From Octopus sinensis (Eukaryota), in contig NC_043010.1 of NCBI RefSeq assembly GCF_006345805.1, forward strand, positions 11,036,001 to 11,100,000: DNA of 64,000 nucleotides, read 5' to 3'. Shown here one piece after another: positions 6,306 to 55,711 of this stretch. The notes under the pieces are model-generated. The model did no database searches, was not told where the DNA came from, and saw nothing but the letters and a program-made list of their open reading frames with translations. Made by a program: the position numbers and the translations under genes. Within the stretch, counting starts at the first letter, position 1, and every line of letters starts with the position of its first letter.

Positions 6306-6774
6306 TAGTTTTATTTTTATAGCGTGCTTTCACTTCACTACCGAGCACAGCTCTGTGTGCCTTGGGTATGTGCTGTGATTTGTTGTGATGCTCTGATGGT
6401 TATTGTATGGAAAGTGTTCTGCGTAGGATGTGTGCAGTGCCTAGTAGTGCAATTTTCTGTATGTTATATGTGTTTGTAAGTCCTGGTGTTTTTGTTATGT
6501 ATTTGTCTGAATATTTTTTTATCATGCCTAATGCACCTACTATGATAGGAATTGTTTCTGTTTTCAGATTCCACATTCTAGTTACCTCTATTTCCAGGTC
6601 TTTGTATTTTGAGAGTTTCTGCATTTCTTTTAGAGACACGTTGTCATCAGCCGGTATTAATACATCAATTAGAAAGCATTTTTTTTCTTCATGATCTCTG
6701 ACAACTATATCTGGTCTGTTGGCCTTAATTTCTCTATCTGTGTGTATCGGCATATCCCAGAGTATGGTTGCTTT

Positions 6775-6780
<6 letters not shown>
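6303..6780 (-). mobile_element. 5'-truncated R4/Dong-like non-LTR retrotransposon (RLE endonuclease C-terminus plus 3'UTR) in (TAA)n
   Basis: ORF 6400-6780 ILWDMPIHTDREIKANRPDIVV..CFLIDV..KE..KLSKYKDLEIEV..W..IPIIVGALG..IQKIALLGTAHILRR is a typical PD-(D/E)xK RLE end; flanked on both sides by (TTA)n. Confidence 0.9.
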
Positions 6781-6812
<32 letters not shown>

Positions 6813-6942
6813 GTAAAGGGGCTAATGTCTGAAATGTCAAAGACCTTTTCCTTTTTCTTTTCAGTATGATACTAATAACACCTTCTTCAAAACTTTCCTT
6901 CGTATTGCATTTCTTATGTTTTCCTTTTGCTCATTTATCATG

Positions 6943-7353
6943 TGTGTGGCTGTATAGTGAGAAGTTTGCTTTCCAACCGCATAGTTCTGGGTTCAGTCCT
7001 ACTGTTGGCACATTGGGTTGACCAGAGCCTTTTAAGTGAATTTAATAGACAGAAACTGAAATATGTTCATTGTGTGTATATGTATGTGTGTGCGAGTGTG
7101 TGTGTGTTTGTGTGCGTGTGTGTGCTTGTAAATGTGTTTGTCCCCTACCGTTGCCTGATGACCAATGTTGGTGTGATTACATCCCAGCAACTTAGCAGTT
7201 CGGTAAAAGAGACTGATAGAATAAGTACCAGACTTTAAAATAGAAATATGTACTGGTGTTGGAATATATAATAATGTGTTTGATTAAAATTCTTCAGTGT
7301 GGTGCCTCAGCATGGCCAGAGTTTAATGACTGAAGCAAGTAAAGGAATAAAAG
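6943..7353 (+). mobile_element. Degenerate SINE family A
   Basis: GTGGCTGTATAGTGAGAAG..GGGTTCAGTCC head; GATAGAATAAGTAC and CAGCATGGCC..ATGACTGAAGCAAGTAAA tail. Confidence 0.75.
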
Positions 7354-7365
7354 AACATATATATA

Positions 7366-7784
7366 CTCTCTCTTTACTCTTTACTCTTTTACTTGTTTCA
7401 GTCATTTGACTGCAGCCATGCTGGAGCACCGCCTTTAATCGAGCAACTTGATCCCAGGACTTATTCTTTTGTAAGCCCAGTACTTATTCTATCATTCTCT
7501 TTTGCCAAACCGCTAAGTAACGGGGACATAAACACACCAGCACCAGTTGTCAAGCACTGCTAGGGGGAAAAACACAGACACACAAACACACACATGCATA
7601 TATATATATACATATATATACGACGGGCTTTTTTTCAGTTTCCATCTACCAAATCCACTCACAAGGCTTTGGTCAGCCCGAGGCTATAGTAGAAGACACT
7701 TGCCCAAGGTGCCATGCAGTGGGACTGAACCAAGAACCATGTGGTTGGTAAACAAGCTACTTAGCACACAGCCACTCCTGCGCC
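7366..7784 (-). mobile_element. SINE family A, near full length (CORE-like tRNA SINE)
   Basis: Reverse strand GGCGCAGGAGTGGCTGTG..GGTTCAGTCCC (A/B boxes), CACCTTGGGCAAGTGTCTT (CORE-like), internal microsatellite, (GAGTAAAA)n tail. Confidence 0.9.
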
Positions 7785-23318: not shown

Positions 23319-23670
23319 GTATATTTGTCCAGAATCACGCTGGACGTGGAGTAGGAGGAGAGAAAATAGTAATTCAGTGAAGGAAAAGTAGTAAGAGTAA
23401 TAGCCCTGACTGCGAGGGAGTGAGAAAAAGTAATTACAATGAGAGAAAGGAAGGGGGGATAGATGAATAAGGAAGGAAGGGGTGAAAAAAAACAAAATCA
23501 GTGCTTCAACAAGGTGTGAGTATGTGTATATGTGTGTGTGTACAAGGGGAGTATGTAAATGTTTGTATGTGTGATTATTATGTACCTTATTTTGTACTTT
23601 ATTTATATATAAAATACTACAATTACAAGTCATTATTGATGGTATGTAGTCAACTAATATAGTAATAAAT

Positions 23671-23902
23671 ACCTATTTCTTTATTACCCACAAGGAGCTA
23701 AACATAGAGGGGACAAACAAAGACAGACATAGGTATTAAGTCGATTACATTGACCCAGTGCGTAACTGGTACTTAATTTATCGACCCCGAAAGGATGAAA
23801 GGCAAAGTCGACCTCGACGGAATTTGAACTCACAACGTAACGCAGACGAAATACCGCTAAGCATTTCTCCCGGCGTGCTAACGATTCTGCCAGCTCGCCG
23901 CC
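23671..23902 (-). mobile_element. SINE family B, full length
   Basis: ACCTATTTCTTTATTACCC...CTGCCAGCTCGCCGCC. Confidence 0.9.
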
Positions 23903-24087: not shown

Positions 24088-24852
24088 GGTCGAGCTGTCA
24101 GAATCGTTAGCATGCCGGGCGAAATGCTTAGCAGTATTTCGTCTGCCGCTATGTTCTGAGTTCAAATTCCGCCGAGGTTGACTTTGCCTTTCATCCTTTC
24201 GGGGTTCGATTAAATAAGTACCAGTACGCACTGAGGTCGATATAATCGACTTAATCCGTTGTCTGTCCTTGTTTGTCCCCTCTGTGTTTAGCCCCTTGTG
24301 GTAGTAAAGAAACAGGTATTCATCTGCCGCTATGTCTGAGTTCAAATTCCGCCGAGGCCGACTTACCTTTCATCCTTCGAGGTCGTAAATAAGTACCATT
24401 ACGCAGTCGATATAATCGACATCGTGGTCTGTCCTGTTTGTTCCTTTGTGTTTACCCTTGTGGGTAGTAAAGAAATAGGTATTTCTTTCATCTGCCGTTC
24501 GTTCGATTTAAAATTCCGCCGAGGTCGACTTTACCTTTCATCCTTTCAGGGTCGATTAAATAAGTACCAGTTACGCACTGGGGTCGATATAATCGACTTA
24601 ATCCGTTTGTCTGTCCTTGTTTGTCCCCTCTGTGTTTAGCCCCTTGTGGGTAGTAAGGAAACAGGTATTTCATCTGCCGCTACGTTCTGAGTTCAAATTC
24701 CGCCGAGGTCGACTTTACCTTTCATCCTTTTGGGAGTCGATTAAATAAGTACCAGTTACGCACTGGGGTCGATATAATCGACTTAATCCATTTGTCTGTC
24801 CTTGTTTGTCCTCTCTGTGTTTAGCCCCTTGTGGGTAGTAAAGAAATAGGTA
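24088..24852 (+). mobile_element. Head-to-tail array of SINE family B (1 full plus 3 headless units)
   Basis: Junctions GTAAAGAAA(C/T)AGGTATT(T)CATCTGCC at about 24315, 24478 and 24665. Confidence 0.88.
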
Positions 24853-25213
24853 TCATTGAAGGGTGGTTCACTATATTTTCTGCTGATTAATCGATCAATT
24901 GATAAAATTTAACCATGAACACATCAACATGCATATCAGAACCAGCAGTGAGTCTCTGATAAATAAATAATTAGATAAATAAATAAATAAAAATAATGTA
25001 TTATTATAGTAGATGATTAAGGCAGTGAGCTGGCAAAATCCTTAGCTCAATGGACAGAGCGTTTAGCAACATTTCATTTGTCTTTACGTTCTGAGTTCAA
25101 ATTCTACCAAGGTCAACTTTGCTGTTCACCCTTTCGAGAGTGAGGAAATTAGTATCGGTTGAGCACTGAGGGTTGATGTAATCAACTTTACCCCATCCCC
25201 AAAACTGATGGCC

Positions 25214-33289: not shown

Positions 33290-34192
33290 ATTAAAATAGT
33301 AATCTGCATATCATACTTAAAGCAGATATACCATTGAAAGCCTTCAAAACTGCTGTCTGCTGATAAAGCTCAAAGAATCAGAAATATGTATTTCTGATAC
33401 AGCGTATTTCTTTATTGCCCTCAGGGGGCTAAACACAGAGAGGACAAACAAGGACAAACAAACGGATTAAGTCGATTATATCGATCCCAGTGCATAACTA
33501 GTACTTAATTTATCGACCCCGAAAAGATGAAAGGCAAAGTCGACCTCGGCGGAATTTGAACTCAGAACGTAGTGGCAGATGAAATACCTATTTCTTTACT
33601 ACCCACAAAGGGCTAAACACAGAGAGGACAAACAAGGACAGACAAACGGATTAAGTCGATTATATCGACCCCAGTGCGTAACTGGTACTTCGTTTATTGA
33701 CCCCGAAAGGATGAAAGACAAAGTCGACCTCAGCGGAATTTGAACTCAGAATGTAGCGGCAGATGAAATACCTATTTCTTTACTACCCACAAGGGGCTAA
33801 ACACAGAGAGGACAAACAAAGACAGACATAGGTATTAAGTCGATTACATCAATCCCAGTGCGTAACTAGTACTTAATTTATCAACCCCGAAAGGATGAAA
33901 GGCAAAGTCGACCTCAGCGGAATTTGAACTCAGAACGTAGTAGCAGACGAAATACTGCTAAGCATTTCGCCCAGTATACTAACGTTTCTGCCAGCTCACC
34001 GTATCAGAAATACGTTGTTAGAAATACTACACCCATTGTTGGATAACATTCATGAGCTTCTGAAATATTTCTGAGTTTTTTTTTCTTCATACTTTACATC
34101 TACAAGAGATGCCATCTTGAGACAAAAACTACAGTTTAGAAGGCTTTGTAGAGTGTATATGCTTTTAGTATGATATGCAGTTTGCTATTTTA
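33290..34192. mobile_element. Old MITE-like element with ~60-bp imperfect TIRs, disrupted by a SINE B array
   Basis: 33291-33352 TTAAAATAGTAATCTGCATATCATACTTAAAGCA.. is the approximate reverse complement of 34131-34192. Confidence 0.55.
33405..34000 (-). mobile_element. Head-to-tail array of SINE family B (3 units, ~184-bp period)
   Basis: Junctions GGCAGATGAAATACCTATTTCTTTAC at about 33581 and 33765. Confidence 0.9.
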
Positions 34193-35875: not shown

Positions 35876-36857
35876 TTAACCCTTTCGTTACTGTATTTAT
35901 TTTGAGATCTCGGTGTTTCTTTCAATTATTTTAAATATAACAAAGAATTTAATAAAATAACTTAGTTATCATTCAGCTAGTGCTAGGAACATAAATTGTG
36001 ACTAAGGTTTGGTGGAAGATTCTAATTCAAAACTTATGAAAAACAAGACATTTGTACTACAGAATCAGAGGCAGTTTCAGCCAGGTTGGTATCAAAAGAG
36101 TTAAGAATTGTTTCTCTATTATATTTTAACCCTTTTGTTACCTTATTTTGTTGAGACAATCTGTGTTTGTTTCAATTAATTTTAAAATAACAAAGAATTT
36201 AGAAAAATAACTTAGTTATCATTCAGCTAGTGTTAGGAACGTAAATTGTGAATAAGGTTTGGTGGAAGATTTTAATTCAAAACTTATGAAAAACAAGACA
36301 TTTGTACTACAGAATCAGAGGCAGTTTCAGCCAGGTTGGTATCAAAAGAGTTAAGAATTGTTTCTCTATTATATATTTTAACCCTTTTGTTACCTTATTT
36401 CTGTTGAGACAATCTGTGTTTGTTTCAATTAATTTTAAATATAACAAAGAATTTAGAAAAATAACTTAGTTATCATTCAGCTAGTGTTAGGAACATAAAT
36501 TGTGACTAAGGTTTGGTGGCAGATTTTAATTCAAAACTTATGAAAAACAAGACATTTGTACTACAGAATCAGAGGCAGTTTCAGCCAGGTTGGTATCAAA
36601 AGAGTTAAGAATTGTTTCTCTATTATATATTTTAACCCTTTTGTTACCTTATTTCTGTTGAGACAATCTGTGTTTGTTTCAATTAATTTTAAATATAACA
36701 AAGAATTTAGAAAAATAACTTAGTTATCATTCAGCTAGTGTTAGGAACATAAATTGTGACTAAGGTTTGGTGGAAGATTTTAATTTAAAACTTATGAAAG
36801 GCATTTGTATCTCAGAACCAGAGCCGGTTTCAGCCAGATTGGTAACGAAGGGGTTAA
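35876..36857. mobile_element. Tandem array of four piggyBac-like MITEs (~250-bp period)
   Basis: Units TTAA-CCCTTT(C/T)GTTAC...GGTATCAAAAGAG or GGTAACGAAGGGG-TTAA starting at 35876, 36126, 36378 and 36632, with a near-identical spacer GAATTGTTTCTCTATTATAT. Confidence 0.85.
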
Positions 36858-41992: not shown

Positions 41993-42034
<42 letters not shown>

Positions 42035-42037
<3 letters not shown>

Positions 42038-42395
42038 TAAAAAAATGGAGTTAACACAGGTTTAATCAAATATCTTTACTTTCGACACATGTTTCGAAAA
42101 TTCCACTGATATTATTCAAAAGAATAAATGGTATAAACAATGCAATCTTCTCCTCAGGAAAGTTTAAAAAACGAAACTCGTCAATAGTATCAGTGGAATT
42201 TTTGAAACATGTGTCGAAAGTAAAAATATTTGATTACACCTGCGTTAACTCCATTTTTTTATTCATATTATTCAAAATATTCAACGTAAACACGAAGTTT
42301 CTACCTTTATAAACAAGGAGTTACAACACCTTTACTTGTGAGATTTTTGCTGCCCTGGTAACTATTTATTTATTTTTCCAGGTAAAAATACACTC

Positions 42396-43191: not shown

Positions 43192-43635
43192 TCATCTACT
43201 TTTAAATTCCAACAAGATGTATTTCTGGTAGTGGGGACATACAGAAAAAATTTCGTTCCTCAAATTTATATATTCATTGGAGGTTCTCAAGTTTTTCAAG
43301 AGAACATACAAAACATCTTTTAGACCCTTTAATATAGGGTCTGCATTTGGAGAGAATTTCCCATTTGTTGTCAAAATTGATTCCTTTGTCTTTAAGTCTC
43401 CAGATTTAAGCCTAAAGTATTGTTGAATGTCTCTTATCATGGTGCCTAAAATTCGAAAAATGGTTGCTATATCTAGATTTAAATTTTCCTTCAACAGTTC
43501 TGATATAACATTTGATATTTGTACATCCATTGTCGTACTTCACTGAAACCTGTACTTCATAAATAACAGGAGATACATCGCACACCTCTCCTAGAGGACA
43601 TTTAGATTTGTCTCTACATGTGCAGTTGAGGAAGG
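43192..43635 (-). pseudogene. Penelope-like element C-terminal GIY-YIG endonuclease (stops and frameshift)
   Basis: NCTCRDKSKCPLGEVC..VIYEVQV..CYIRTVEGKFKSRYSNHFSNFRH..STIL / IWRLKDKG..WEILSKCRPY..CFVCSLEK / INLRNEIFSVCPH. Confidence 0.88.
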
Positions 43636-43667
43636 CTTGAGTCATCCATTGCTTATTGATATATGAC

Positions 43668-51518: not shown

Positions 51519-52166
51519 GTGCAGGAGTGGCTGTGTGGTAAGTAGCTTGCTTACCAACCACATGGTTCCGGGTTCAGTCCCACTGCGTGGCACCTTGGGC
51601 AAGTGTCTTCTACTATACCCTCGGGCCGACCAAAGCCTTGTGAGTGGATTTGGTAGACAGAAACTGAAAGAAGCCCGTCGTATATATGTATATATATATA
51701 TATGTGTGTGTGTGTGTATGCTTGTGTGTCTGTGTTTGTCCCCCTAGCATTGCTTGACAACCGATGCTGGTGTGTTTACGTCCCCGTCATTTAGCGGTTC
51801 GGCAAAAGAGACCGATAGAATAAGTACTGGGCTTACAAAAGAATAAGTCCCGGGGTCGATTTGCTCGACTAAAGGTGGTGCTCCAGCATGGCCGCAGTCA
51901 AAATGACTGAAACAAGTAAAAGAGTAAAAGAGTATATATATGTGTGTGTGTATGTTTGTGTGTCTGTGTTCATCCCCCTAGCATTGCTTGACAACCGATA
52001 CTGGTGTGTTTACGTCCCCGTTACTTAGCGGTTCGGCAAAAGAGGCCGATAGAATAAGTACTGGGCTTACAAAAGAATAAGTCCCGGGGTCGATTTGCTC
52101 AACTAAAGGTGGTGCTCCAGCATGGCCGCAATCAAATGACTCAAAGAAATAAAAGAGTAAAAGAGA
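51519..52166 (+). mobile_element. SINE family A with tandem duplication of its 3' half
   Basis: Full copy at 51519-51933 followed by a repeat of the post-microsatellite half at 51934-52166. Confidence 0.9.
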
Positions 52167-52530
52167 ATATACATATGCAATAGGCTTCTTTTAGTTTCCA
52201 TCTACAATAGCCACTCACAAGGCATTGGTCGACCTGAGACCTGAGACCATAGTAGGAGACACTTATACAAGATGTCACCCAAAACCACGAGGATGGAAAG
52301 AAAACCTCTTAACAACAGAAACCTGTCTGCAACTATGTGGTTAAGAAGCTCACTTTGCAATGACGTGATTTGCAGTTCAGTCCTACTGCATGGCATCTTC
52401 ATGTCTTCTACTACAGGCCTGGGCAGAACAATACCTTGTGAGTGTCTTTGATAGGTAGAAACTAAACTGAGTGGATGCCCAATGTGTACATATGTATGTA
52501 TGTATGTATGTATGTCTATCTATCTATCTA

Positions 52531-52917: not shown

Positions 52918-53481
52918 TATATATACACACATACACACACACACACATGAGGTGGTATCAAGAGGTTGCTAGACTAGTTATGTTTAATAAAAAACTTATT
53001 TACTTAAGTTTTAATATCAGGAGTAAATATATTTACTCATGTACAAATATACACATGCATACATATACACATGTATACATATATTTAAGTCCACGCACAC
53101 ATAAACACGCACACACACATACGTCCATACTGAATTAGCCATCATATAATCCTATATCTGATTCGAAGATTTTATCTGTTGTAAAAGTTACTTCAAAAGC
53201 CCTTTACAACTTAACACACATAACATGTATATTATATATATAAATATATATATATATATATAACAATAATAAATCTCTAAGCGAGGTATAAACAGTAACT
53301 GCTCTGTAATATAAGCGGGATCAGCCATCTGAATGTGGCTAGGGACAGGGTGGGGTGGTGGGGGTGCTACTGATGCATTTAGCCCCAGGCGACTATAGAC
53401 GTCACCAGAAGAGCCGACACCATACGGTGTCCTTGCTAGCCTGCAAAGGGAGATCAGCCTCTCCGAAGATACGGATGCTAC

Positions 53482-53522
53482 ACACGGACCGGTTTCGAGG
53501 TGGTCGCCTCTCGTCAGCGCAT
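53482..53522 (-). ncRNA. Type-I hammerhead ribozyme (inverted copy)
   Basis: Reverse complement of ATGCG-CTGACGA-GAGG(CGACCA)CCTC-GAAAC-CG-GTC-CGTGT. Confidence 0.9.
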
Positions 53523-53688
53523 GGCAAGCACCGTTCTTCGTTGAGGGACTTCCTCTACAGGCTAGAAATATATAGATTTTCACAGTAAACACAGTCACAG
53601 GCGTCGAAAATCTGTTCGATAACAATAGCGAAAATCTATATATTTCTAGCCTGTAGAGGAAGTCCCTCAACGAAGAACGGTGCTTGCC

Positions 53689-53729
53689 ATGCGCTGACGA
53701 GAGGCGACCACCTCGAAACCGGTCCGTGT
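53689..53729 (+). ncRNA. Type-I hammerhead ribozyme; predicted cleavage after C53724
   Basis: ATGCG-CTGACGA-GAGG(CGACCA)CCTC-GAAAC-CG-GTC-CGTGT; palindromic stem III ACCGGT. Confidence 0.92.
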
Positions 53730-54048
53730 GTAGCATCCGTATCTTCGGGGAGGCTGATCTCCCTTTGCAGGCTAGCAAGGACACCGTGATGGTGTCGGCT
53801 CTTCTGGTGACGTCTATAGTCGCCTGGGGCTAAATGCATCAGTAACACCCCCACCACCCCGCCCTGTCCCTAGCCACATTCAGATGGCTGATCCCGCTTA
53901 TATTACAGAGCAGTTACTGTTTATACCTCGCTTAGAGATTTATTATTGTTATCGAACAGATTTTCGACGCCTGTGACTGTGTTTACTGTGAAAATCTATA
54001 TATTTCTAGCCTGTAGAGGAAGTCCCTCAACGAAGAACGGTGCTTGCC

Positions 54049-54088
54049 ATGCGCTGACGAGAGGCGACCACCTCGAAACCGTCCGTGT
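54049..54088 (+). ncRNA. Type-I hammerhead ribozyme (1-nt deletion in loop III)
   Basis: CTGACGA-GAGG..CCTC-GAAAC-C-GTC-CGTGT. Confidence 0.82.
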
Positions 54089-54258
54089 GTAGCATCCGTA
54101 TCTCGGGGAGGCTGATCTCCCTTTGCAGGCTAGCAAGGACCCGTGATGGTGTCGGCTCTTCTGGTGACGTCTATAGTCGCCTGGGGCTAAATGCATCAGT
54201 AACACCCCCACCACCCCGCCCTGTCCCTAGCCACATTCAGATGGCTGATCTCGCTTAT

Positions 54259-54297
<39 letters not shown>

Positions 54298-54628
54298 TGA
54301 GGAGACCGCCTTCGGTCATGAATGACCATGGGATTGCACCTAGAAAGTTACCCTGCGAGGCACAAGTCTGGGCAAGGTTGTTTATGGAAGGCCAGCAGTT
54401 ACCCATGCATACCGGCCTCACCATTCCATGCCACCGATGTTATCCAAGGGAAAGGTAAAGAGGCTGATACAGCTTGGCACCTGTGACACCACAATTCATT
54501 TCTACAGCTGAGTTAACTGAAGCAACATGAAATAAATTATCTTGCTCAAGAACACAACACGCAGCCTGGTCCAGGATTCAAACTCAGAACCTCATGATCG
54601 TAAGCGCAACGCTCTAAACACTGAGCAC
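54298..54628 (-). mobile_element. SINE family D (tRNA head plus CORE domain)
   Basis: Reverse strand GTGCTCAGTGTTTAGAGCG..GAGTTTGAATCC..GTGTTCTTGAGCAAGA..ACTCAGCTGTAGAAATGA. Confidence 0.85.
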
Positions 54629-55403: not shown

Positions 55404-55711
55404 TGAGACCCCCTTTGGTCATGACTGACCATGGGATTGCACCTAGAAAGTTACCCTCCCATGCATGGGTCGCCCATGCATACCGGCCTCCCCTCTCCAC
55501 ACCACCAGTGTTATCCAAAGGAAAGGCAAAGGGGCCGATACAGCTTGGCACCAGTGACGTTGCAACTCAATTTTTACAGCTGAGTGAACTGGAGCAACAT
55601 GAAATAAAGTGTCTTGCTCAAGAACACAACACTCAGCCTGATCCAGGATTCGAACTCACAACCTCACGATCGTAAGCTCGATGCTCTAACCACTGAGCCA
55701 TGTGCCTTCAC
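55404..55711 (-). mobile_element. SINE family D
   Basis: GTGAAGGCACATGGCTCAGTGGTTAGAGC..GAGTTCGAATCC..GTGTTCTTGAGCAAGACACTTTA on the reverse strand. Confidence 0.88.

What the first reader, a model, noticed from the sequence alone, without database searches (positions are those of the whole stretch)
53230..54297. Insertion geometry implies twin priming from (TA)n on a circular or multimeric RNA template
Seen: the left arm (53260-53627, 368 bp) is antisense and covers one full unit plus about 9 nt of terminal redundancy (ATAACAATA at both ends). After a 2-nt GC junction, the right arm (53630-54260) is sense and covers about 1.75 units. Both outer ends stop at internal UA-rich sites of the unit (..TTGTTAT and ..GCTTATAT) and merge into (TA)n. 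None of the four ends lies at the ribozyme cleavage site, and both arms read through it. Inference: both strands of a nicked (TA)n target primed cDNA synthesis by microhomology, and each RT run exceeded one unit length, as expected for a circular template.
Basis: partly seen in the sequence, partly recalled or inferred. Interest (0 to 1): 0.7.

Follow-up and report, generated by a model that had tools for sequence, protein, structure and literature searches.

The report
Ribozyme retroelement inserted head-to-head in TA-repeat
A small non-coding jumping element carrying a self-cutting RNA motif has landed as back-to-back copies inside a TA repeat, a layout already known from Penelope-like retrotransposons; one copy cannot show whether its RNA template was a circle.

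Summary
The geometry is real as described. A 360-bp unit with a canonical type I hammerhead forms a 368-bp antisense arm (one unit + 9 nt), 2 extra bases, and a 631-bp sense arm (1.76 units). (TA)n overlaps the outer ends by 3 and 5 nt (joint chance about 0.002-0.01). It is a non-LTR retrozyme with the documented insertion layout of Penelope-like elements (PLEs): partial tandem, head-to-head inverted copy, (TA)n target. The window also holds a Hydra-like PLE endonuclease remnant and a second head-to-head hammerhead pair. Priming from both target strands is likely; a PLE protein does this in vitro. The circle is not shown. Twin priming on one 360-nt circle would make each polymerase run into the other primer after 49 and 311 nt. 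An uncut linear multimer of at least 1,040 nt, or two separate RNAs, fits as well. That no end lies at the cleavage site is expected by chance (88%). A read chimera is unlikely. No other copies could be retrieved. New member of a known kind; moderate interest.

The parts
53228..53262 (.). Left (TA)n array; its last 3 nt are shared with the element end
53260..53627 (-). Left arm: inverted copy, unit positions 315-360 + 1-323 (one unit + 9 nt)
53260..53268 (-). Outer copy of the 9-nt terminal redundancy (3' end of left arm, U315-323)
53619..53627 (-). Inner copy of the 9-nt redundancy (5' end of left arm)
53481..53523 (-). Type I hammerhead, left arm; predicted cleavage after 53487 on the minus strand
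53605..53613 (+). First copy of a 9-nt direct duplication at the junction (reverse complement of U329-337)
53628..53629 (.). Two extra bases at the inversion joint; no microhomology at the exact joint
53629..53637 (+). Second copy of the 9-nt duplication; the right arm starts at the first base of one arm of an 8-bp internal inverted repeat
53630..53989 (+). Right arm, first full 360-bp unit (majority state at all 8 variable sites)
53688..53730 (+). Type I hammerhead (helix I 6 bp, II 4 bp, III 1 bp + palindromic loop); predicted cleavage after 53724
53958..53997 (+). Internal 8-bp inverted repeat of the unit (U329-336 with U1-8 of the next unit), a predicted hairpin in the circular fold
53990..54260 (+). 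Right arm, partial second unit (U1-274) with three 1-nt deletions and one transition
54048..54089 (+). Third hammerhead, with a 1-nt deletion that breaks the helix III palindrome
54256..54297 (.). Right (TA)n array; its first 5 nt are shared with the element end

Best explanation
A young insertion of a non-coding, hammerhead-bearing tandem retroelement (non-LTR retrozyme), copied into a (TA)n array by the RT and GIY-YIG endonuclease of a Penelope-like element acting in trans. SHOWN in the sequence: unit, hammerheads, head-to-head polarity, partial tandem, (TA)n on both sides, TA overlap at both outer ends. INFERRED: (1) the endonuclease nicked both strands of (TA)n; (2) each 3' end primed cDNA at an internal AT-rich site of the RNA (U270-274 and U320-323), perhaps helped by 3-5 nt of pairing; (3) the template carried intact hammerhead junctions, so it was either one uncut multimer of at least 1,040 nt or two separate RNAs (monomer circles copied with strand displacement, or multimers); (4) the two cDNA ends were joined head-to-head by repair at the unit's internal hairpin, leaving 2 extra bases and a 9-nt duplication. 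Within this model I put a circular template at about 40%, a linear multimer at about 45%, and mixed or template-jump routes at about 15% (judgement).
For: Geometry. The hammerhead has the canonical metazoan architecture (PMC4209133 part 1). Unit size and self-paired circular fold match animal retrozymes (-118.4 kcal/mol, z -3.8, 0 of 100 shuffles as stable; PMC7229834). Partial tandem plus an inverted 5'-truncated copy, and (TA)n targets, are described PLE features (PMC8557442 passages and section 11; PMC3846280). PAc nicks and extends both strands, starts internally and uses uncut RNA (PMC11167929). TA overlap joint P 0.002-0.01. The same window holds a PLE endonuclease remnant with the CxCX5C, CxxC and CxH motifs described for the (TA)n-targeting Hydra clade. 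It also holds a second head-to-head hammerhead pair ending in (TA)n, and 3 of the 4 other hammerheads end in (TA)n within 90 nt (P about 0.001). A 37-nt gap and a 1.7:1 arm ratio are compatible with L1 twin-priming statistics (10.1101/2024.08.27.596794 passages).
Against: One locus only; no second copy in the window or in the collections searched. No sequence similarity between the unit and the local PLE remnant, so the mobiliser is not identified. PAc initiated without homology, so the TA overlap may reflect fixed AT-rich ends or later slippage. The 37-nt adjacency has P=0.21 by chance. No target-site duplication can be read in (TA)n. The 46-54-nt offset between the two 3' ends exceeds the 30-40-nt PLE tail. 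A palindromic helix III should favour cleavage of multimers, which counts against the uncut linear template.
Confidence: 0.6

Rival explanations
1. One reading: one monomeric circular RNA primed at two sites by both strands of the nicked (TA)n, each polymerase running more than one turn.
For: All three cleavage junctions are read without added bases. The left arm is one turn + 9 nt (P 0.053). The helix III type is spared in monomer circles, and circles are the main RNA form in mussel retrozymes. The model of target-primed copying of circles is published.
Against: The two primers would sit 49 nt apart on the circle. Each polymerase must displace the other's product for about 320 nt, and the stop 37 nt short of the second primer happens only on the second lap. 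The three copies differ at 8 sites, which is not diagnostic but gives no support for one template.
Confidence: 0.12
2. Fold-back self-priming: one cDNA folded back at the unit's internal inverted repeat and copied itself, giving a 323-bp stem with a 48-nt loop; the extra 311 nt came from a template jump or a second cDNA.
For: The arms form a near-perfect inverted repeat around a 48-nt spacer. The right arm starts exactly at an arm of an 8-bp internal inverted repeat (4 such starts in 360, P about 0.011, post hoc), with a 9-nt duplication. Self-priming at palindromic junctions is the published hypothesis for PLE head-to-head repeats (PMC3846280).
Against: The bases just before the restart do not match the register needed to prime on U1. 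The right arm runs 311 nt beyond anything the left arm could template. The left arm and the first right unit differ by 3 transitions and 1 deletion, no fewer than the two tandem units (1 and 3).
Confidence: 0.15
3. DNA-level history: an ordinary tandem retrozyme array was later inverted or trimmed by replication template switching, and the (TA)n grew from or recombined with TA runs in the unit.
For: (TA)n is common (111 arrays of 6 or more units, 3.2% of the window). Both outer ends are at TA runs, and the joint lies on an inverted repeat. Local amplification by unequal crossover is proposed for retrozyme arrays (10.64898/2026.07.22.740005).
Against: The inversion is confined to the element and the copies are 98.5-98.8% identical, leaving little time. 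The same layout recurs in an unrelated hammerhead element 11 kb away.
Confidence: 0.08
4. Sequencing or assembly fold-back chimera.
For: Four of the 8 differences are 1-nt deletions, as long-read errors often are (error pattern recalled). Inverted PLE structures are known to trouble assemblies.
Against: The two unique flanks do not mirror each other (no match). The arms differ by transitions, the right arm has sequence the left arm lacks, and the spacer is 48 nt.
Confidence: 0.05

Closest known systems
Non-LTR retrozymes of animals (Cervera & de la Pena 2020, PMC7229834; e.g. mussel 350-390-bp and axolotl 330/350-bp repeats)
   Same: Short non-coding tandem unit (360 bp) with one canonical type I hammerhead per unit; 1-bp helix III with palindromic tetraloop as in axolotl HHR_Amex1; stable predicted circular fold.
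   Different: Here part of the array is inverted head-to-head and both ends run into (TA)n. The words 'inverted' and 'microsatellite' do not occur in that paper's main text and occur only in unrelated passages of the 2026 preprint; supplements were not seen. GC is 50.6%, at the edge of the stated <50%. Cleavage and circles are untested.
Penelope-like element insertions (Penelope/Poseidon, Neptune, Naiad, Hydra; PMC8557442, PMC3846280, PMC11167929)
   Same: Partial tandem with an adjacent inverted 5'-truncated copy, head-to-head; inverted repeat at the joint; (TA)n target; internal 3' ends that differ between the two sides; uncut hammerheads in opposite strands 100-700 bp apart (PMC4209133).
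   Different: No RT or endonuclease ORF. The hammerhead is canonical, not minimal. The 3' ends are offset by 46-54 nt rather than a 30-40-nt tail. No sequence link to a PLE was found.
L1 twin priming (5'-inverted L1; passages of 10.1101/2024.08.27.596794 and PMC2912911)
   Same: Two arms with outward-pointing 3' ends; short overlap with the target at the inverted end; short gap between inverted and forward parts (37 nt modulo the unit; reported median 14.5 bp); forward arm longer.
   Different: No poly(A), both primers internal, no readable target-site duplication, no microhomology at the exact joint, and the template must be multi-unit.

Membership tests
Non-LTR retrozyme | Type I hammerhead in each repeat unit | tested here: met
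   3 of 3 copies carry the core with helices I 6 bp and II 4 bp; null 0.02 per window. The third has a 1-nt deletion in helix III. Rfam gave no hammerhead hit.
Non-LTR retrozyme | Short tandem unit of about 150-450 bp | tested here: met
   360-bp period, 1.76 units head-to-tail
Non-LTR retrozyme | No protein-coding capacity | tested here: met
   4-9 stops in each of 6 frames of the circular unit; no Pfam family and no homologue for the left arm's open frame
Non-LTR retrozyme | Highly self-paired predicted circle | tested here: met
   -118.4 kcal/mol, z -3.8, 0 of 100 shuffles as stable
Non-LTR retrozyme | GC below 50% | tested here: inconclusive
   50.6%
Non-LTR retrozyme | Self-cleavage and circular RNA in vivo | not testable with these tools
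   Needs transcription assay, northern blot or divergent RT-PCR
Non-LTR retrozyme | Many dispersed copies in the genome | not testable with these tools
   Only this locus in 64 kb; no animal genome collection available
Autonomous Penelope-like element | ORF with RT and GIY-YIG endonuclease | tested here: not met
   No such ORF in the insert; not filed as an autonomous PLE
PLE-type insertion architecture | Partial tandem with adjacent inverted 5'-truncated copy, head-to-head | tested here: met
   against PMC8557442 and PMC3846280
PLE-type insertion architecture | (TA)n or AT-rich target | tested here: met
   empty allele not available
PLE-type insertion architecture | 30-40-nt tail at one end only | tested here: inconclusive
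   Left 3' end extends 49 nt (46-54 with end ambiguity) beyond the right; chance of being within 54 nt is 0.30
PLE-type insertion architecture | Sequence kinship with a PLE pseudo-LTR | tested here: inconclusive
   No match to the local remnant region or other hammerhead fragments; no PLE library available
L1-type twin priming | Inverted and forward arms adjacent and non-overlapping on one RNA | tested here: inconclusive
   37-nt gap modulo the unit (P 0.21); holds only on a template of at least 1,040 nt
L1-type twin priming | Microhomology between target and internal priming site | tested here: met
   3 nt and 5 nt, joint P 0.002-0.01
L1-type twin priming | Microhomology at the inversion joint | tested here: not met
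   2 extra bases at the joint; an 8-9-nt match lies 16-24 nt away and appears duplicated rather than merged
L1-type twin priming | Poly(A)-primed forward arm and target-site duplication | tested here: not met
   No poly(A); duplication unreadable in (TA)n
Viroid-like or coding circular RNA replicon (endogenised) | Ribozymes in both polarities, or an endless ORF (criteria recalled) | tested here: not met
   One hammerhead polarity per unit (other ribozyme classes only via Rfam); all 6 circular frames have stops

The most novel reading that the evidence does not exclude
The insert is a genomic footprint of rolling-circle reverse transcription. A (TA)n-targeting PLE protein, probably acting as a dimer, primed both nicked strands on circular retrozyme RNA and ran 1.03 and 1.76 turns. 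That would be direct structural evidence that animal retrozyme circles are the transposition intermediates and that PLEs mobilise them, and the end positions of the family would map the start sites.
Probability: 0.33. Interest if true: 0.68.

Novelty: new member of a known kind. Interest (0 to 1): 0.38.

Why it matters
How animal retrozymes move is open. PLE mobilisation and circle-templated copying are both proposed but not shown (PMC7229834 Discussion; the 2026 preprint says the mechanisms remain to be elucidated), and the origin of PLE inverted repeats is unsettled (self-priming versus both-strand priming). A young retrozyme copy carrying the PLE insertion signature links the two questions. 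It suggests a cheap genome-wide test: plot all ends and inversion joints on the monomer. By itself the locus is one more instance of known parts in a known layout.

Tried and rejected
Rfam: no family at gathering score in the window. Only sub-threshold microRNA-like matches at the locus. The window-wide E-value scan listed 150 of 461 matches, nearly all microsatellite-driven, none a hammerhead among those shown. Other copies: none in the window; two exact patterns from the unit gave 0 matches in bacterial and archaeal genomes; no phage match; no protein-level relative of the left arm's open frame. Coding circle: rejected, because the 122-codon open frame of the left arm depends on its private 1-nt deletion and all frames of the 360-nt unit have stops. 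Using the 8 sequence differences to choose between one and several templates: uninformative (3, 0 and 1 private substitutions in the shared 274 nt). 'No end at the cleavage site' as evidence for a circle: weak (88% by chance). Clustering of all four ends in an 88-nt arc: P 0.057, and that arc is AT-rich (66% against 43%). First homologue search for the PLE remnant found nothing; Pfam and PDB did not name it or 11 of its 150 listed relatives, so its assignment rests on motifs read against PMC8557442. An energy evaluation used an impossible loop and was redone. Literature: 'twin priming' + 'Penelope' gave 3 papers, none about PLE insertions by title or abstract start; 'octopus + Penelope + hammerhead' gave no description of this family in the listing. 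Subscription papers and supplements were not covered.

Full report
Observation. The description is accurate. With U = 53630-53989 (360 nt), the left arm 53260-53627 is the reverse complement of U315-360 + U1-323, and the right arm 53630-54260 is U1-360 + U1-274. The left arm's redundancy is exactly 9 nt. Both 5' ends face the 2-base joint and both 3' ends point outward into (TA)n at 53228-53262 and 54256-54297. The three copies differ at 8 sites: left arm 3 transitions + 1 deletion, second right unit 1 transition + 3 deletions. The insert is therefore young, and some deletions may be sequencing errors (inference). The unique flanks do not resemble each other, which argues against a fold-back read. 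The host is an AT-microsatellite-rich animal genome. Its SINE-like repeats look octopod to me, but that is recalled and was not tested.

The unit. Rfam does not recognise the ribozyme, so I scanned with a type I hammerhead descriptor. It gave 7 hits on both strands of 64 kb, 3 of them in this element, against a mean of 0.02 in 100 block shuffles. Helix I has 6 bp, helix II 4 bp, and helix III one pair closed by a palindromic tetraloop. That is the canonical metazoan form, reported to cleave as a double hammerhead in multimers and to be spared in monomer circles (PMC4209133, part 1 of 4 read). The single-hammerhead fold scores -7.4 kcal/mol against an alternative of -19.0, and the helix III palindrome pairs with itself at -8.3; the third copy's deletion removes this. 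The circular monomer folds at -118.4 kcal/mol (z -3.8, 0 of 100 shuffles). All six frames have stops. These features place it with animal non-LTR retrozymes (PMC7229834: parts 2-3 of 6, passages and Discussion read). Cleavage, expression and copy number were not testable.

The layout is the PLE norm. Craig et al. state that PLE insertions are often partial tandems with an inverted 5'-truncated copy at the 5' end and a 30-40-bp tail at one end, and that Naiad and Hydra families insert in (TA)n (PMC8557442: passages and section 11). Arkhipova et al. describe head-to-head repeats with palindromes at the joint and propose self-priming (PMC3846280, parts 1-4 of 5). Frangieh et al. show a purified PLE protein nicking and extending both strands of AT-rich DNA, starting at two internal, non-homologous RNA sites, with uncut RNA as the main substrate (PMC11167929, parts 1-2 of 4). 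A 2026 preprint argues that animal retrozymes are non-autonomous PLE derivatives (10.64898/2026.07.22.740005, parts 1-3 of 5 and passages; supplements not seen).

The window supplies local context. At 43654-43195 (-) a broken ORF hits 374 proteins at E <= 0.001 and shows CxCX5C, a degenerate GIY-YIG, CxxC and CxH, as described for the Hydra clade; Pfam and PDB did not name it. At 42031-42268 an unrelated hammerhead element forms a head-to-head pair with 84-bp arms (79 of 84 identical) that end at the same nucleotide, one of them in (TA)n. Three of the 4 other hammerheads run into (TA)n within 37-90 nt of the predicted cut, against 6.5% of non-repeat positions (P about 0.001). So head-to-head, (TA)n-ended hammerhead elements occur here without arms longer than a unit. 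The unit shares no sequence with these, so its mobiliser is not identified.

(a) Priming by TA microhomology: overlaps of 3 and 5 nt have joint chance 0.002-0.010 under uniform ends. This supports the idea but is post hoc, the longest TA run (U8-14) was not used, fixed AT-rich start sites would look the same, and the only in vitro PLE data show non-homologous starts. (b) Twin priming on one RNA predicts that the forward arm stops near the second primer. The gap is 37 nt modulo the unit, compatible with L1 (66% with a deletion, median 14.5 bp; 10.1101/2024.08.27.596794, passages) but with chance 0.21, and it needs a template of at least 1,040 nt with three uncut sites. (c) Circle: on one monomer circle the polymerases would meet the other primer after 49 and 311 nt, so both would have to displace each other for about 320 nt. 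Two separate circles avoid this. In favour of circles are the seamless junctions, the one-turn-plus-9 left arm (P 0.053) and the hammerhead type. In favour of multimers are their accumulation in axolotl, the absence of cleavage in 8 of 9 frog dimers and the PAc result. (d) That no end is at the cut site is expected 88% of the time; only the read-through matters, and it excludes a single pass over a cleaved monomer. Passages of 10.1101/2024.12.14.628481 and PMC2912911 were read for definitions only.

The right arm begins at the first base of one arm of an 8-bp internal inverted repeat, one of the two longest in the unit (4 such starts in 360, P about 0.011, post hoc). As a result, a 9-nt word is duplicated at 53605-53613 and 53629-53637. 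A clean anneal of two cDNA ends at this match would have merged the copies; they were kept, with 2 extra bases. This fits a polymerase stall at the hairpin followed by repair with a short templated patch (inference from general knowledge of end joining), or fold-back. It cannot be resolved from one copy.

Verdict. This is a real, young non-LTR retrozyme insertion with PLE-type architecture. Priming from both target strands is the best reading (0.6); a circular template in some form is about 0.35-0.4 and is not implied by the geometry. I found no description of inverted, (TA)n-embedded retrozyme copies in the searches made, but supplements and subscription papers were not seen, and the layout is standard for PLEs. 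New member of a known kind; interest 0.38, rising to about 0.68 if family-wide end mapping shows rolling-circle copying.

Noticed in passing
window 43195-43654 (-): Broken PLE endonuclease remnant with CxCX5C, degenerate GIY-YIG, CxxC and CxH motifs, matching the description of the (TA)n-targeting Hydra clade; 374 relatives at E <= 0.001. A candidate class of mobiliser.
   Followed up: partly
window 42031-42268: Second head-to-head pair of a different, AT-rich hammerhead element: 84-bp arms, 79 of 84 identical, 70-nt spacer, both arms ending at the same nucleotide, low end in (TA)n.
   Followed up: partly
window 25681 (-), 32701 (+), 58570 (-): Three more type I hammerhead motifs. The first two lie in short fragments between TA-rich arrays; the 58570 motif is 75% identical over 77 nt to the 42157 one.
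   Followed up: partly
window 58814 (-): Hammerhead-like core with a 5-bp helix II; found by the loose pattern but not by the stricter descriptor.
   Followed up: no
window 6400-6930 (-): 176-codon open frame that resembles, from memory, the C-terminal restriction-like endonuclease of R4/Dong non-LTR elements, next to (ATT)n arrays; no Pfam match.
   Followed up: partly
window 24134-24853, 33405-33955, 35876-36844, 51699-52171: Head-to-tail arrays of 185-, 184-, 254- and 234-bp units, mostly SINE-like (label recalled); an inverted pair at 23665-23897 / 24091-24323.
   Followed up: no
window 54298-54625 and 55405-55697: The right flank begins with another repeat, 78% identical to a copy 1.1 kb downstream.
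   Followed up: no
window 53415 region (unit position 216, left arm): The left arm's private A-to-G change in RNA sense could be a mutation or A-to-I editing of the template; a single site, so untestable.
   Followed up: no
window 7142-7566: Imperfect 425-bp palindrome, 66% identity, not examined.
   Followed up: no
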